From Escherichia coli (GTDB lineage: Bacteria; Pseudomonadota; Gammaproteobacteria; Enterobacterales; Enterobacteriaceae), in NCBI RefSeq assembly GCF_036507355.1, contig NZ_AP027885.1: a DNA stretch of 2,046 nt; one strand, written 5' to 3'. Below, in pieces: positions 404 to 2,046 of the stretch. The notes beneath the pieces were generated by a model that ran no database searches, was not told where the DNA came from, and saw only the letters and a list, made by a program, of their open reading frames with translations. Positions within the stretch are counted from its first letter, which is position 1. Each line of letters begins with the position of its first letter. The translations under genes were made by a program, and so were the position numbers.

Positions 404-430
404 TTTTGATGCGATGCAGATAGGGTTAAC

Positions 431-455
431 GCCGCAAAACGAGGTCATTTGCGGC
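431..455. terminator. Hairpin between convergent genes (stem GCCGCAAA / TTTGCGGC, 9-nt loop); possible weak bidirectional terminator or RNA-stabilising stem-loop
   Basis: Seen in sequence: 431-438 gccgcaaa and 448-455 tttgcggc are exact reverse complements. It lies between the stop at 401-403 (+) and the stop at 466-468 (-). There is no clear U-tract on either strand, hence low confidence. Confidence 0.3.
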
Positions 456-465
456 ATTCCAGAGA

Positions 466-900
466 TTAGGTTCTGCCGCCCTGTATAACGCTGAGGCCGT
501 TTTTTAGTGCTTTCTTGTGGTTGCTGACAGTACCTTTCCAGCCAAACTGAGGGTTCAGACGGTAACTGTAACTGCGCCCTACTTTTGGGCCTTGAAGAAT
601 CACGGATAGGTCAATTAGCGCCTTAACCGAACGGCTTACATTGGTTTTCTGCATACCTAAAGCGTCGGCAATATCGGCTTGGGCAATTTGGATGTAATTT
701 TCATAATCGAGATCAGCTAACAGCATCATCAAGACTTTGAATTGCTCCCCTGTGAGGGTCTTAGCAAGGATCTTTAAAGCGTCTTGGTTCATAGTGAAAT
801 GCCTCTCAAAAGCTGACTTCTGTTTGGGTCGGATAACTGCGACAAAACTACCTACCTCTTCCCCTGTAGCAGTGTCTATCTGAGTAATTCGGTTACTCAT
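466..900 (-). CDS. 144-aa predicted winged-helix/HTH DNA-binding protein; candidate small plasmid replication initiator (RepL-like) or autoregulatory repressor
   Basis: ATG is the reverse complement of 898-900 and the TAA stop is the reverse complement of 466-468. An RBS GGGAGAG lies 8 nt upstream (rc of 907-913). The protein has an HTH-like segment (GEQFKVLMMLLADLD...IQIAQADIADALGMQKTNVSRSVKALIDLSVI). The gene has lower GC than its flanks. Palindromic repeats sit in its promoter region. The Rep-versus-regulator call is inference. Confidence 0.75.
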   Translation of the reverse strand: MSNRITQIDTATGEEVGSFVAVIRPKQKSAFERHFTMNQDALKILAKTLTGEQFKVLMMLLADLDYENYIQIAQADIADALGMQKTNVSRSVKALIDLSVILQGPKVGRSYSYRLNPQFGWKGTVSNHKKALKNGLSVIQGGRT

Positions 901-972
901 TTAAGAGGCTCTCCCAAAAAAATAGTTATCAATAATGATAACAACGTTATCAATAATGATAACTATCGTCAA
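901..972 (-). promoter_or_regulatory. Promoter/RBS region of the - strand gene, overlapped by operator-like repeats
   Basis: On the - strand: RBS GGGAGAG (rc of 907-913); -35-like hexamers TTGATA (rc of 927-932 and 948-953) and TTGACG (rc of 967-972); only weak -10 candidates (e.g. GATAAC, rc of 925-930). Exact promoter elements are uncertain. Confidence 0.4.
925..963. repeat. Two tandem 18-bp direct repeats (GTTATCAATAATGATAAC), each internally palindromic, 21-bp register; candidate operator or iteron array
   Basis: Seen in sequence: 925-942 and 946-963 are identical. Each is GTTATCA-ATAA-TGATAAC, and the 3-bp spacer AAC creates a further 7-3-7 inverted repeat between units, giving four alternating heptamers in total. 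Confidence 0.9.
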
Positions 973-1106
973 GCGAGAGCCGCGCCCCACAAGGGCTGAG
1001 AGAAGGCTCTCTTCTGTATCTTATAGCGAGAAGCTCATATGCCCGGATAGCGAACCCTATTTTCATCGGTTCGTGCGTAAGCATTTCTATGCCCGTTCAG
1101 GTGATA

Positions 1107-1196
1107 TTCCGCTTCCTCGTTCAGGCTGTTCGTTCCTCGCTGCGCTGCGGTACGCCTCAGCCTGACCTGCGGCGAGCGGCGCGTGCTCTTTCAAAG
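1107..1196. other. Segment resembling the primosome-assembly / single-strand initiation (pas, n'-site) region found downstream of ori in ColE1/pMB1-type plasmids
   Basis: Hand comparison with the pUC/pBR322 sequence recalled from memory. Colinear exact blocks: ttccgcttcctcg (1107-1119), ctcgctgcgct (1136-1146), ctgcggcgagcgg (1167-1179), and a 9/11 match ctctttcaaag (1186-1196), with insertions between blocks. Needs confirmation by alignment. Confidence 0.35.
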
Positions 1197-1382: not shown

Positions 1383-1413
1383 GTCTAGTGAGTACACTAT
1401 CATCCTGATAGTG
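1383..1413 (+). promoter_or_regulatory. Candidate oriT core / relaxase operator: nested inverted repeats sharing arms, about 70-95 nt upstream of the relaxase start
   Basis: Seen in sequence: TAGTG (1386-1390) - AGTA - CACTA (1395-1399), overlapping the 8-3-8 palindrome CACTATCA (1395-1402) - TCC - TGATAGTG (1406-1413). Alternative hairpins with shared arms are typical of MobV-type oriTs. A possible weak promoter overlaps: -35 TTGCGT (1371-1376), -10 TACACT (1393-1398). The functional assignment is inference. Confidence 0.35.
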
Positions 1414-1480: not shown

Positions 1481-2046
1481 ATGGCGAATTACGCGATAAT
1501 GCGCTGCAAAAAGCTGACGGGAATGGGCAGTGTGGCCAGCGCTTTGCAGCACTGCTACAGGGAGCGTGAGACGCCGAATGCTGACGCTGAACGGACACCA
1601 GAAAACTACTGCTCTGTGTCTCAGTCGGCAGATGAGGCGATGGGAAAGCTGCGGGAGCTGTTGCCGGAAAAACGCCGTAAAGATGCGGTACTGGCTGTTG
1701 AATACGTTATGACGGCAAGCCCTGAGTGGTGGAACGAGGCCACACCGCGGCAGCAGGCGGAGTTTTTCGCCCGTTCTGAGCAATGGCTGGAGAACAAATA
1801 CGGGAAAGATCGCGTTGTGGCGGCGGTGGTTCACAGGGACGAGGCCACCCCGCACCTGTCTGCGTTCGTGGTGCCATTGACGCAGGATGGGCGGCTGTCC
1901 GCGAAAGAGTTTATTGGCGGGCGGTCAAAGATGCGTGACGATCAGAGCACCTACGCTGAATCGGTAAAAAAACTGGGTCTTGAGCGCGGCATCGAGGGAA
2001 GCCGTGCCACGCATCAGACAGTTCAGCACTACTACGAATCGATAAA
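1481..2046 (+). CDS. mob: MobV-family (Mob/Pre, pMV158 MobM-like) plasmid mobilization relaxase, N-terminal relaxase domain; 3'-truncated by the window edge
   Basis: ATG at 1481 is preceded by the RBS. The frame is open through nt 2046 (188 codons, hand-translated, no stop), which is why it is absent from the ORF track. The translation (MANYAIMRCKKLTGMGSVASALQHCYRER...RKDAVLAVEYVMTASPEWW...AAVVHRDEATPHLSAFVVPL...LERGIEGSRATHQTVQHYY) matches, from memory, the conserved MobV blocks: the N-terminal M-x-Y-x-V-x-R-x-Q-K region, an HNER-like motif, the RKDAVL block and the HxDE..PH metal-binding motif. Confidence 0.9.
   Translation, partial: MANYAIMRCKKLTGMGSVASALQHCYRERETPNADAERTPENYCSVSQSADEAMGKLRELLPEKRRKDAVLAVEYVMTASPEWWNEATPRQQAEFFARSEQWLENKYGKDRVVAAVVHRDEATPHLSAFVVPLTQDGRLSAKEFIGGRSKMRDDQSTYAESVKKLGLERGIEGSRATHQTVQHYYESI

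What the first reader, a model, noticed from the sequence alone, without database searches (positions are those of the whole stretch)
925..963. Tandem palindromic 18-bp repeats (four alternating GTTATCA/TGATAAC heptamers) over the promoter of the winged-helix gene
Two identical 18-bp units 21 bp apart (two helical turns), each a 7-4-7 palindrome, form a 39-bp array of alternating heptamers directly upstream of the RBS and start of the - strand gene and overlapping its -35-like hexamers. A perfect 18-bp duplication is far beyond chance in 2 kb. This architecture fits cooperative binding of a dimeric HTH protein, either autoregulation by the adjacent gene product or iteron-type origin repeats.
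Basis: partly seen in the sequence, partly recalled or inferred. Interest (0 to 1): 0.6.

Follow-up and report, generated by a model that had tools for sequence, protein, structure and literature searches.

The report
Rep-protein binding sites on a mini-plasmid
The two identical 18-bp palindromes are very probably the docking sites where this 2-kb plasmid's own small replication protein binds, over its own promoter and next to the likely origin; this is an ordinary kind of plasmid control element, but it sits in a very common, poorly annotated plasmid family and shows a one-amino-acid DNA-recognition code.

Summary
GTTATCAATAATGATAAC occurs exactly at 925-942 and 946-963, and 0 of 1000 shuffles give an 18-nt repeat. 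The window is a complete 2,046-bp enterobacterial plasmid with two genes: a MobV relaxase and a 144-aa winged-helix protein. That protein is a RepL-superfamily initiator, homologous to the Reps of pJW1, pRAO1, pIGMS31 and pKL1.

Every relative found by protein homology (100% to 37% identity, Enterobacterales to Bartonella and Selenomonas) has two 18-bp units 21 bp apart. They lie between a TTGACR -35 and the rep RBS. In 72 unique loci the free half-site bases stay complementary within a unit (70/72 and 69/72) and identical between units (71/72).

One Rep residue at the start of the recognition helix predicts the half-site perfectly: Asn87 with GTTATC (29/29) and His87 with GTTACC (22/22). The switch recurs in pairs that are 97-98% identical. 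The neighbouring protein therefore almost certainly binds these sites.

They cover the promoter spacer, -10 and predicted start site, which implies autorepression. They also lie a fixed 46-48 nt from an invariant AGATACAGAA box, which suggests they double as the origin's Rep-recognition element.

Experimentally studied analogues exist (pIGMS31, pKL1), so this is a new member of a known kind and of moderate interest.

The parts
946..963 (-). Palindromic unit 1 (promoter-proximal in rep sense; GTTATCATTATTGATAAC on the minus strand). It fills the -35/-10 spacer and contributes the first four bases of the -10.
   Evidence: Exact repeat. Conserved position and form in all relatives.
925..942 (-). 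Palindromic unit 2, identical to unit 1. It covers the predicted transcription start and the first part of the leader.
   Evidence: By analogy with pIGMS31, where the mapped start lies in the right arm of IR2 (sequence).
943..945 (-). 3-nt spacer between the units (GTT in rep sense). Its first two bases complete the -10 hexamer.
   Evidence: The spacer is always 3 nt. The hexamer formed by the last 4 nt of unit 1 plus 2 spacer nt is TAACTT 35, TAACAC 12, TAACAT 10, TAACCT 4, TAACGT 2 of 71 loci.
967..972 (-). -35 hexamer TTGACG of the rep promoter.
   Evidence: A TTG[AC][AC]-type hexamer lies 2-4 nt upstream of unit 1 in 55/71 unique loci, and also in pJW1 and pIGMS31.
944..952 (-). Extended -10 (TG-A-TAACGT), 17 nt from the -35. 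The alternative reading, GATAAC at 946-951, matches the mapped pIGMS31 -10 (TATAAC).
   Evidence: Sequence reading, family statistics, pIGMS31 promoter mapping. Inferred, not mapped here.
937..939 (-). Predicted transcription start of rep, inside unit 2.
   Evidence: Inference from promoter geometry and from the pIGMS31 5'RACE result.
909..915 (-). Ribosome-binding site GGGAGAG of rep.
466..900 (-). rep: a 144-aa single winged-helix initiator of the RepL superfamily (WP_004193480). The recognition helix is residues 85-97, and Asn87 is the specificity residue.
   Evidence: Pfam RepL 7.5e-5 over aa 6-132. Homology to pJW1, pRAO1, pKL1 and pIGMS31 Reps. PhiNPX5G motif. AlphaFold pLDDT 85. Covariation.
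1012..1021 (-). Invariant box AGATACAGAA (extended consensus TAAnA-AGATACAGAA-GGGG, about 1008-1026), 48 nt upstream of unit 1. Candidate initiation or nick site, or host-factor site, of the origin.
   Evidence: Invariant in all 11 distinct PLSDB relatives found by protein homology, with a TTTACAGAAG version in pJW1. The gap is restricted to 46-48 nt although 44-60 was allowed. Logo. Homology with L011 ends at 1024.
790..807 (-). Internal Shine-Dalgarno-like GAGAGG (802-807) and in-frame ATG of Met37 (790-792). Possible second product, Rep' (108 aa, winged-helix domain only).
   Evidence: The Arg33 codon is AGG in 43/44 cases against 17% elsewhere, and the ATG is present in 52/54. Synonymous change is suppressed over codons 25-39. 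Some records annotate only the short form. Precedent: pIGRK RepR'.

Best explanation
The 39-bp array consists of two adjacent binding sites for dimers of the plasmid's own 144-aa RepL-type replication initiator, encoded immediately downstream.

Each 18-bp unit (GTTATC-N6-GATAAC) would take one dimer. Each recognition helix would read one half-site, with Asn87 reading the T:A pair at half-site position 5. The 21-bp spacing puts both dimers on the same face of the DNA, which favours cooperative binding.

Unit 1 fills the spacer between the -35 (TTGACG) and the -10, and unit 2 covers the transcription start. Bound Rep would therefore exclude RNA polymerase and hold rep expression, and with it copy number, at a set level (autorepression).

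The same complex lies a fixed 46-48 nt (48 nt in the window) from an invariant AGATACAGAA box. Box, palindromes and rep move between plasmid backbones as one cassette. The array is therefore probably also the specificity ('bind') element of the replication origin, and the invariant box the site where initiation takes place.

Shown here by sequence comparison: the element is real, its architecture is conserved, and it co-evolves with one Rep residue. Inferred: physical binding, dimer stoichiometry, repression, and the origin role. My estimates are Rep binding about 0.9, autorepression about 0.75, and origin role about 0.5.
For: (1) The window is a whole two-gene plasmid, so the 144-aa protein is the only candidate initiator. 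Plasmids with unrelated backbones share only the rep-to-box cassette.

(2) Rep is homologous to the pJW1 Rep (37% over 114 aa, E 5e-22), the pRAO1 Rep (2e-11), pKL1 RepA (2e-6) and pIGMS31 RepM (8e-4). It matches Pfam RepL and carries the RepL PhiNPX5G motif.

(3) All relatives have -35, two 18-bp units at 21 bp, RBS, then rep.

(4) In 72 unique loci the unconstrained half-site dinucleotide is self-complementary in 70 and 69 units and identical between units in 71. The chance expectation is 1/16.

(5) Residue 87 is N with GTTATC (29/29) and H with GTTACC (22/22). Its mutual information equals the full class entropy (0.986 bit), against 0.35 for the next-best column. The rare half-site classes carry other residues at positions 86-88.

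(6) At least 16 half-site class changes are needed on the Rep tree. Pairs that are 97-98% identical still switch.

(7) AlphaFold places residue 87 in the first turn of the recognition helix.

(8) Promoter elements are conserved around the units.

(9) Experimental precedent: pIGMS31 RepM dimerises, binds IR1/IR2 most strongly and represses its promoter, and the transcription start lies in IR2. pIGMS31's essential origin 'iterons' are 18-bp palindromes of the same form, GTTATAG-ATTC-CTATAAC.

(10) The distance from the box to the palindromes is fixed at 46-48 nt although the sequence between them is not conserved.
Against: There is no experiment on this plasmid or its close relatives: no footprint, no mapped start site, no origin mapping.

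The -10 is weak (TAACGT), and a second promoter-like match lies inside the array.

The metagenomic loci were selected with a pattern that required the box and two GTTNNC-N6-GNNAAC units. Invariance of those features therefore rests on the smaller set found by protein homology (11 distinct sequences plus pJW1).

Recombination could move helix and operator together, which would inflate the count of 'independent' switches.

The origin role is argued only from geometry, modularity and analogy. In phage P1 the RepL origin lies inside repL (own recollection), and in pIGMS31 the rep ORF is an incompatibility determinant, so the origin could lie elsewhere.

The replication mode of this superfamily (rolling circle or theta) is itself unresolved.
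Confidence: 0.75

Rival explanations
1. The repeats are origin iterons only. Rep binds them to initiate replication, and their overlap with the promoter has no regulatory consequence.
For: They have the same form as the pIGMS31 IT1-4 'iterons', which are essential origin and incompatibility elements. They lie at a fixed distance from the invariant box. No other Rep-type sites exist in the plasmid.
Against: In every relative the units sit precisely between the -35 and the RBS. The 3-nt spacer is constrained to complete a -10. A protein bound there must interfere with RNA polymerase. All characterised relatives autoregulate.
Confidence: 0.1
2. The repeats are a pure transcriptional operator with no part in replication. 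The origin lies elsewhere, for example inside rep or at the invariant box alone.
For: Their position over the core promoter. pIGMS31 has separate iterons and operators. In P1 the RepL origin is intragenic (own recollection).
Against: An initiator must recognise its origin specifically, and the plasmid has no other copy of its half-site. The invariant box does not co-vary with Rep specificity. The strict 46-48-nt phasing between box and units is hard to explain for an operator alone. No region of suppressed synonymous change inside rep looks like an origin.
Confidence: 0.25
3. The palindromes act as nucleic-acid structures rather than protein sites: DNA cruciforms, or a 5'-UTR hairpin controlling translation or stability.
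For: Compensatory changes keep each unit self-complementary, which is what a hairpin would also require. Unit 2 is predicted to be partly transcribed.
Against: A hairpin does not need both units to carry the same half-site (71/72), nor a perfect match to one amino acid of the neighbouring protein. Arm position 7 and the centre are poorly complementary. The predicted leader does not fold better than shuffles (z -0.83). There is no Rfam match.
Confidence: 0.03
4. The sites are bound by a host protein (DnaA, IHF or another) rather than by Rep.
For: AT-rich palindromes near origins often bind host factors. pKL1's origin is said to contain an IHF box.
Against: No DnaA or IHF consensus is present at up to 1 mismatch. 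Half-sites diverge among plasmids that share the same hosts, and they track a plasmid-encoded residue.
Confidence: 0.02

Closest known systems
pIGMS31 (Klebsiella pneumoniae) RepM with IR1/IR2 operators and IT1-4 iteron-like repeats (pHW126-like family)
   Same: A small MobV-mobilisable plasmid. Its Rep has a MarR-like winged helix and is weakly homologous to the window Rep (30% over 81 aa). The rep gene is preceded by two inverted repeats built from the same half-site core (TTATAAC / GTTATAA). RepM dimers bind them most strongly and repress the promoter, and the transcription start lies in IR2. Its IT1-4 are 18-bp palindromes of the same form, GTTATAG-ATTC-CTATAAC. The layout is ssi, conserved region, repeats, rep.
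   Different: RepM is 201 aa with a long N-terminal extension. pIGMS31 has four extra repeats that form a separate origin and incompatibility element, whereas the window has only the two promoter units. GC content is much lower in that family (pHW126 31.5%) than the window's 53%. I could not match its conserved region to AGATACAGAA.
pKL1 (E. coli, 1549 bp) RepA and its upstream binding sites
   Same: A minimal replicon with one small winged-helix Rep. The origin is reported upstream of rep with several Rep-binding sites and a perfect inverted repeat. Tandem palindromes TGTCGCATCC(A/T)GGATG... lie just upstream of repA. Relatives of the window Rep (L006, L011) sit on the pKL1 backbone.
   Different: Only 30% identity over 54 aa. 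The half-site sequence and repeat spacing (about 25 bp) differ. There is no AGATACAGAA box. RepA hexamerisation is reported for pKL1 (reference title quoted) and is untested here.
pJW1 (Selenomonas ruminantium, 1410 bp) and the RepL family (pSN2, pSRD191, P1 RepL; Pfam PF05732)
   Same: The closest named Rep (37% over 114 aa). It has the same layout: TTGACT, 3 nt, 18-bp unit, 3 nt, 18-bp unit, RBS, ATG, with a TTTACAGAAG box about 60 nt upstream. The PhiNPX5G motif is shared.
   Different: The pJW1 units are imperfect palindromes with other half-sites (GTTGGT/ACCAAC). I found no functional study of its repeats. pSN2 RepL itself is not detectable by BLASTP.
Operator inverted repeats of iteron plasmids (pPS10, pSC101, R6K; Rep_3 / pi-type initiators)
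   Same: Initiator dimers bind an inverted repeat overlapping the rep promoter and repress it (own knowledge; R6K comparison). The functional logic is the same: one protein acts as both repressor and initiator.
   Different: Those Reps have two winged-helix domains and use monomers on direct-repeat iterons for initiation. Here there is one winged-helix domain, no Rep_3 match and no non-palindromic iterons.
Bipartite double-strand origins of rolling-circle plasmids (a variable 'bind' locus plus a conserved 'nic' locus, e.g. pMV158 and pT181 families)
   Same: A plasmid-specific Rep-binding repeat lies next to a family-invariant short box at a fixed distance. This is the pattern known for bind and nic loci (own knowledge).
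   Different: Rep has no HUH or Rep_trans motifs. No Tyr is conserved across the superfamily (reading of the alignment). The relaxase activity reported for relatives was not sequence-specific on control DNA.

Membership tests
RepL family of plasmid/phage initiators (Pfam PF05732) | Significant match to the RepL profile over most of the protein | tested here: inconclusive
   i-Evalue 7.5e-5, 22.7 bits, aa 6-132 on model positions 14-132 of 164. No NCBIfam RepL model matched. PGAP names relatives at 65-77% identity 'replication/maintenance protein RepL'.
RepL family of plasmid/phage initiators (Pfam PF05732) | Conserved PhiNPX5G motif after the helix-turn-helix (PMC12089946) | tested here: met
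   L115-N116-P117-QFGWK-G123. L115 and N116 are at least 90% conserved and G123 is invariant in alignment A1. Motif definition.
RepL family of plasmid/phage initiators (Pfam PF05732) | The protein is required for and initiates replication of its plasmid | not testable with these tools
   Inferred only: it is the sole non-Mob gene in the window, and the rep-to-box cassette is the only region shared among backbones.
pHW126-like plasmid family (pHW126, pIGRK, pIGMS31, pRAO1) | Rep homologous to pHW126-type Reps with a central winged helix | tested here: inconclusive
   pRAO1 2e-11 and pIGMS31 8e-4, but no BLASTP hit to the pHW126 Rep itself. These sequences come from an OCR-read supplement.
pHW126-like plasmid family (pHW126, pIGRK, pIGMS31, pRAO1) | Four 20-bp iteron-like direct repeats (IT1-4) in the minimal origin | tested here: not met
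   The window has only two units, both over the promoter, and no further copies.
pHW126-like plasmid family (pHW126, pIGRK, pIGMS31, pRAO1) | An approximately 20-bp conserved region (CR) common to all members | tested here: inconclusive
   The window family has its own 20-nt conserved box. I could not obtain the published CR sequence, and AGATACAGAA is absent from pIGMS31.
pHW126-like plasmid family (pHW126, pIGRK, pIGMS31, pRAO1) | ssi-like palindrome upstream of the origin; strikingly low G+C (31-37%) | tested here: inconclusive
   ssi-like elements are present (1095-1165 and 1217-1258). G+C is 53%, against 31.5% for pHW126.
Autoregulated Rep operator (initiator dimers on inverted repeats over the rep promoter) | Inverted repeats overlap the core promoter of the rep gene | tested here: met
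   The units lie between the conserved -35 and the RBS, and the -10 is built from the end of unit 1 plus the spacer. The promoter itself is predicted, not mapped.
Autoregulated Rep operator (initiator dimers on inverted repeats over the rep promoter) | The repeats are recognised by the Rep encoded downstream | tested here: met
   Computational only: perfect Asn87/His87 against T/C covariation over repeated switches, with residue 87 in the recognition helix.
Autoregulated Rep operator (initiator dimers on inverted repeats over the rep promoter) | Rep represses its own transcription | not testable with these tools
   Shown for pIGMS31, pIGRK and pHW126, not for this subfamily.
Iteron-type theta plasmids (Rep_3 / RepA / pi) | Two-winged-helix Rep_3-type initiator and direct-repeat iterons bound by monomers | tested here: not met
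   No Rep_3 match. The model has a single winged helix. The repeats are palindromes. No DnaA boxes.

The most novel reading that the evidence does not exclude
The two palindromes are the whole Rep-recognition part of one of the smallest protein-dependent origins known. A 144-aa, single-winged-helix initiator with no nuclease, helicase or ATPase motif binds as two dimers. It triggers initiation at an invariant 10-nt box held exactly 46-48 nt away, and the same complex shuts off its own promoter. A single residue (Asn87, His87, or Gln/Ala in rare classes) together with one base pair per half-site sets specificity. Repeated N/H switches would then create new incompatibility groups, letting sister plasmids coexist in one cell. 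An in-frame Rep' made from Met37 may act as the negative regulator.
Probability: 0.35. Interest if true: 0.6.

Novelty: new member of a known kind. Interest (0 to 1): 0.4.

Why it matters
Plasmids carrying this Rep cassette are very common in E. coli, Klebsiella, Salmonella and related bacteria. There are 273 PLSDB records, 389 protein clusters at 90% identity and 84 metagenomic contigs.

Despite this, their initiator is usually annotated as a MarR or HTH regulator, a hypothetical protein or even a 'lipoprotein'. Replicon typing either misses them or types the backbone instead.

Recognising the palindromes, the invariant box and rep as one replication cassette gives a basis for annotating and typing these plasmids.

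The Asn87/His87 to T/C rule is a simple, testable protein-DNA recognition code. It may define incompatibility groups and could be used to design orthogonal mini-replicons. Because the cassette is so small, it is also a tractable model for the unresolved question of how RepL and pHW126-type initiators start replication.

Tried and rejected
1. Internal copies of GTTATC and ACAGAAG inside the window's rep gene (about 815-835) looked like an intragenic site. They are not conserved at nucleotide level in relatives, so I rejected them.

2. A 5'-UTR hairpin role: the predicted leader folds no better than shuffles (z -0.83). The only Rfam match is a chance mir-451 hit far below threshold.

3. Host-factor sites: no DnaA box or IHF consensus at up to 1 mismatch.

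4. Solved structures: sequence and profile searches of the PDB and Foldseek gave only generic winged-helix repressors (TubR, MarR, CodY, ArsR). There is no informative Rep-DNA complex.

5. pKL1 as a direct homologue: it is only distantly related, though it shares its backbone with some family members.

6. Matching the invariant box to the published pHW126-family CR: AY543071, AY543072 and FN429030 are not in the collections, figures are not held, and pIGMS31 (fetched as NC_011406) lacks AGATACAGAA. This is unresolved.

7. A conserved hairpin around the box: I examined it by eye in several relatives and it is not consistent.

8. The 18-bp length difference from the 100%-identical record NZ_CP081700 lies at about 1235-1848, not in the repeats.

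9. Literature searches for WP_004193480, pJW1 and MG828 found no functional study of this subfamily.

10. The viral-contig scan gave one locus, L103, which I did not examine individually.
Full report
OBSERVATION. The window contains GTTATCAATAATGATAAC twice, exactly, at 925-942 and 946-963, 21 bp start to start. Each copy has perfect 7-nt inverted arms around a non-symmetric ATAA centre. No other exact heptamer copy exists in the 2,046 bases. In 1000 dinucleotide-preserving shuffles the longest exact direct repeat was 9-17 nt (median 10) and never 18. The array is AT-rich (26% GC against 53% overall). It lies just upstream of the RBS (909-915) and ATG (898-900) of the minus-strand 144-aa ORF.

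WHAT THE WINDOW IS. The window matches 204 PLSDB records, 60 of them over at least 80% of its length. These are 2.0-2.7-kb plasmids of Escherichia, Klebsiella, Enterobacter, Salmonella and others, for example NZ_CP081700 (100% identity) and NZ_AP022132 (97%). It is a circular permutation of a complete plasmid. The MobV relaxase ORF (NCBIfam MobV, 5e-48) runs from 1481 across the window ends to 403 as one intact 322-codon frame. The only other gene is the 144-aa protein (WP_004193480), annotated 'helix-turn-helix domain-containing protein'. MOB-suite assigns these records no replicon type.

THE NEIGHBOURING PROTEIN IS THE REPLICATION INITIATOR. Pfam gives MarR_2 (3e-5) and a near full-length RepL match (7.5e-5, aa 6-132). 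I took Rep sequences from Additional file 2 of PMC2831885 (OCR quality). BLASTP against these gives:
- pJW1 Rep (Selenomonas ruminantium): 37% over 114 aa, E 5e-22
- pRAO1 Rep: 41% over 81 aa, 2e-11
- pKL1 RepA: 30% over 54 aa, 2e-6
- pIGMS31 RepM: 30% over 81 aa, 8e-4
- pSN2 RepL: not significant

The RepL signature PhiNPX5G (PMC12089946) is present as L115-N116-P117...G123, with N116 nearly invariant and G123 invariant in alignment A1. tblastn finds the protein in 273 plasmid records. Some are annotated 'replication/maintenance protein RepL', and they sit on unrelated backbones: MobV, MOBP, the pKL1-type backbone, and a 16-kb Arsenophonus plasmid. The big protein database holds 389 clusters, nearly all on 1-6-kb contigs. 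They are named MarR or HTH regulator, hypothetical protein, or wrongly 'biotin operon repressor', 'Rha-like' or 'lipoprotein'. AlphaFold (pLDDT 85) predicts a single winged helix: helices 39-48, 51-62 and 74-81, recognition helix 85-97, wing 101-115, C-terminal helix 125-134. PDB searches return only generic winged-helix repressors.

THE ARCHITECTURE IS CONSERVED. I extracted the rep upstream regions of 15 fetched PLSDB relatives and of pJW1. Every one has two 18-bp units 21 bp apart, directly before the RBS and preceded by a -35-like TTGNNN. This holds down to Bartonella pKM19s (42% Rep identity, units identical to the window's). It also holds for pJW1 from a Negativicute (37%; TTGACT-AAA-GTTGGTAAATATGCTAAC-TTA-GTAGGTAAATTTACCAAC). 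The half-sites differ among plasmids but remain palindromic and alike in both units:
- GTTATC/GATAAC: window, L006, L008, L011, L015
- GTTACC/GGTAAC: L005, L012-L014
- GTTGAC/GTCAAC: L009

The central 6 nt vary freely (ATTATT, AATAAT, TCTAGA, TTGAGA, TCACAT).

A SECOND CONSERVED ELEMENT. The alignment of upstream regions shows an invariant AGATACAGAA (window 1012-1021, minus strand) in otherwise unalignable DNA. pJW1 has TTTACAGAAG in the equivalent place. The distance from ACAGAA to unit 1 is 52-54 nt in all enterobacterial and Bartonella relatives.

WIDER SAMPLING. I scanned metagenome contigs with AGATACAGAA-N{44,60}-GTTNNC-N6-GNNAAC-N3-GTTNNC-N6-GNNAAC. This returned 84 loci from metagenomes and 1 from viral contigs. 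Although 17 gap lengths were allowed, only 46, 47 and 48 nt occur (20, 65 and 23 matches). Among 72 unique operator-plus-protein combinations, the two unconstrained bases of each half-site are complementary within a unit in 70 and 69 cases and identical between the two units in 71. Chance would give 1 in 16. Six half-site classes occur: AT 38, AC 28, AG 3, and GA, CT and AA 1 each. Arm position 7 and the centre are much less constrained, so the family-wide unit is 6-6-6. Caveat: the pattern forced the box, the GTT/AAC ends and the two-unit layout. Invariance of those features rests on the protein-homology set, not the metagenomic set.

PROTEIN-DNA COVARIATION. I aligned the 56 unique Rep proteins and scored every column against half-site class. 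Window position 87 (QKT-N-VSRSVKAL) is Asn in all 29 GTTATC proteins and His in all 22 GTTACC proteins. Its mutual information is 0.986 bit, equal to the class entropy, and the next-best column scores 0.35. The rare classes carry other residues at positions 86-88: FQ for GTTGAC, SA for GTTAAC, VN for GTTAGC, NNF for GTTCTC. On an NJ tree built without column 87, at least 16 class changes are needed, and the AT and AC classes are interspersed in several clades. Greedy pairing finds AT/AC pairs that differ at only 3-5 other residues (97-98% identity) yet switch N to H together with all four half-sites. Residue 87 lies in the first turn of the predicted recognition helix. Asn pairing with A:T and His with G:C fits the known amino-acid-to-base preferences (own knowledge). 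This is strong in-silico evidence that the adjacent protein reads these half-sites. Recombination of helix-plus-operator segments could inflate the number of 'events' but not the linkage itself.

PROMOTER GEOMETRY. In rep sense the window reads TTGACG (972-967) - ATA - unit 1 (963-946) - GTT - unit 2 (942-925) - TATTTTTTT - GGGAGAG - N8 - ATG. With a 17-nt spacer the -10 is TAACGT (949-944), preceded by TG (952-951), giving an extended -10. Family-wide, a TTG[AC][AC] hexamer lies 2-4 nt before unit 1 in 55/71 unique loci. The hexamer made of the last four bases of unit 1 plus two spacer bases is TAACTT (35), TAACAC (12), TAACAT (10), TAACCT (4) or TAACGT (2). In pIGMS31 the mapped promoter is TTGACT-N15/16-TATAAC, so the -10 is likewise a half-site, and the 5'RACE start lies in the right arm of IR2 (coordinates checked). 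By analogy the window's start is near 937-939, inside unit 2. The generic scan found a weaker alternative inside the array (TTATCA-16-TATCAT). Either way, Rep on unit 1 or unit 2 would occlude RNA polymerase.

COMPARISON WITH CHARACTERISED RELATIVES. In pIGMS31, RepM (201 aa, MarR-like winged helix) dimerises and binds fragments with IR1/IR2 most strongly: four shifts with both, two with IR2 alone. It represses the rep promoter. The minimal origin is CR plus IT1-4 plus IR1, and IT1-4 are an incompatibility determinant. Reading the pIGMS31 sequence (NC_011406) shows that IT1-3 are GTTATAG-ATT(C/T)-CTATAAC and IT4 is GTTGGTC-ATTC-GACCAAC. These are 18-bp palindromes of the same form as the window's units. 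IR1 and IR2 (TTATAAC-N3-GTTATAA) correspond to the junction between two such units. The window's array therefore resembles pIGMS31's iterons in form and its operators in position. In this smaller replicon the two functions appear merged. pKL1 has tandem palindromes (TGTCGCATCC(A/T)GGATG...) just upstream of repA, and its origin is reported to lie there with several Rep-binding sites.

MODULARITY. BLASTN shows that homology between the window and the 1,306-bp plasmid L011 spans only window 473-1024, from the rep stop codon to the invariant box. L006 and L011 share about 690 bp of backbone with pKL1 (89-90% identity) but carry the window-type cassette in place of pKL1's repA cassette. Both cassette types are typed 'Col(MG828)', so that label seems to follow the backbone. 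The unit that moves as one piece is box - 47 nt - two palindromes - rep. That is what a self-contained replicon core would look like.

MECHANISM PROPOSED. Two Rep dimers bind the two units on one DNA face (21 bp is two helical turns). This represses rep. Together with the invariant box at a fixed phase it also forms the origin. The box does not change when Rep specificity changes. It is therefore read by something invariant: a host factor, or a conserved Rep surface or activity. This mirrors the variable 'bind' and conserved 'nic' loci of rolling-circle origins (own knowledge). Rep has no HUH or Rep_trans motifs, however, and the relaxase activity reported for RepM also acted on control DNA. 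Both theta and rolling-circle intermediates were reported for pIGMS31, so the mode of initiation is open. No DnaA or IHF boxes are present. ssi-like elements upstream (about 1095-1165, and the 1217-1258 hairpin) probably serve lagging-strand priming. The 1100-1190 segment recurs in 603 plasmids, 328 of them conjugative, so it is a generic, host-directed element.

RIVALS. A pure structure role (cruciform or leader hairpin) would explain compensatory changes within a unit. It would not explain identity between units or the link to residue 87. The leader fold is also not significant. Host-factor binding is contradicted by divergence among plasmids that share hosts. 'Operator only' and 'origin only' remain possible, and I consider a dual role most likely.

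SIDE FINDING: A POSSIBLE SECOND REP PRODUCT. Synonymous change is suppressed over codons 25-39. The cause appears to be (C/G)AG-AGG-CAY-TTY-ACN-ATG. The Arg33 codon is AGG in 43 of 44 cases, against 17% at other Arg positions, and Met37 is ATG in 52 of 54. This forms a Shine-Dalgarno-like GAGAGG (window 802-807) 9 nt before an in-frame ATG (790-792). Several database records annotate only this short form. A 108-aa Rep' consisting of just the winged-helix domain would parallel pIGRK's RepR', a negative regulator made from an internal start.

NOVELTY AND VERDICT. Autoregulatory Rep-binding inverted repeats at a rep promoter are a well-known kind of element, with experimental examples in related plasmids (pIGMS31, pIGRK, pHW126, pKL1). 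I found no functional study of this particular subfamily. The element is best filed as a new member of a known kind. What lifts it above routine is fourfold:
- the clean single-residue recognition code;
- the strictly phased invariant box;
- the compactness of the cassette;
- how widespread and poorly annotated this replicon is.

Interest 0.4.

Noticed in passing
window 1012-1021 (minus strand AGATACAGAA; extended about 1008-1026): An invariant 10-nt box with sharp edges (consensus TAAnA-AGATACAGAA-GGGG), always 46-48 nt upstream of the first palindrome although the DNA between them is not conserved. It does not change when Rep specificity changes. Candidate initiation or nick site, or host-factor site.
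   Followed up: partly
window 790-807 (minus strand): An internal Shine-Dalgarno-like GAGAGG plus an in-frame ATG (Met37) inside rep. The Arg33 codon is AGG in 43/44 relatives, the ATG is kept in 52/54, and synonymous change is suppressed over codons 25-39. This suggests a 108-aa Rep' comparable to pIGRK RepR'. Some database records annotate only this short ORF.
   Followed up: partly
window 1095-1165 (rep-sense strand: CGCAGCGCAGCGAGG...CGAGGAAGCGGAA) and 1217-1258 (hairpin TCGTCAAGGG...CCCTTGACGA with a GAGCGTAGCGAG loop): Two ssi-like / primosome-assembly-like elements on opposite strands. They resemble the ColE1/pBR322 pas region (own recollection) and the pKL1 and pIGMS31 ssi regions. The 1100-1190 segment recurs in 603 plasmids, including 328 conjugative ones.
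   Followed up: partly
window 1394-1412: A perfect hairpin, CACTATCA-TCC-TGATAGTG, about 70-90 nt upstream of the mobV start (1481). It is the likely MobV-type oriT.
   Followed up: no
window 1481-2046 joined to 1-403: The MobV relaxase ORF runs across the window ends as one intact 322-codon frame, so the window is a complete circular plasmid cut inside mobV.
   Followed up: yes
window 428-458: Inverted repeat AACGCCGCAAA / TTTGCGGCATT between the convergent mobV (ends at 403) and rep (ends at 466). Probably a shared bidirectional terminator.
   Followed up: no
L006 (NZ_CP085073), L011 (NZ_CP124459), L016 (pKL1, NC_002145): About 690 bp of non-Rep backbone is 89-90% identical between pKL1 and plasmids that carry the window-type Rep cassette. 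Both are typed Col(MG828). Replicon typing therefore seems to follow the backbone rather than the initiator, and Rep cassettes are exchanged as modules.
   Followed up: partly
L003 and L004 (NZ_CP040074 and NZ_CP040075, both from E. coli A1_181): One strain carries two plasmids of this family with different specificity classes: Asn87/GTTATC and His87/GTTACC. This is what a specificity switch that creates compatible replicons would predict.
   Followed up: no
L006 499-1158 (minus strand) in NZ_CP085073: A 219-aa ORF annotated 'rep protein' lies on the pKL1-type backbone. It is not annotated in pKL1 itself and is absent from the window. It may be a spurious ORF with an inherited name.
   Followed up: no
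L034, L073 (metagenome contigs): Single contigs carry two different Rep cassettes of this family, with different palindrome centres. These may be cointegrates, multimers or chimeric assemblies. L047, L052, L060, L069 and L082 carry two identical copies, which are probably concatemeric assemblies of circles.
   Followed up: no
P0001-P0120 and PLSDB rows: Members of this Rep family are named MarR family regulator, HTH domain protein, hypothetical protein, 'biotin operon repressor', 'phage regulator Rha-like protein' or 'lipoprotein', and only rarely RepL. This is systematic under-annotation of a common initiator.
   Followed up: partly
window 907-981: The 39-bp array sits inside a longer imperfect palindrome (arms 907-942 and 946-981, 78% complementary; GGCTCTC at 907-913 against GAGAGCC at 975-981, and again GGCTCTC at 1005-1011). 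The outer part is specific to the window's close relatives.
   Followed up: no
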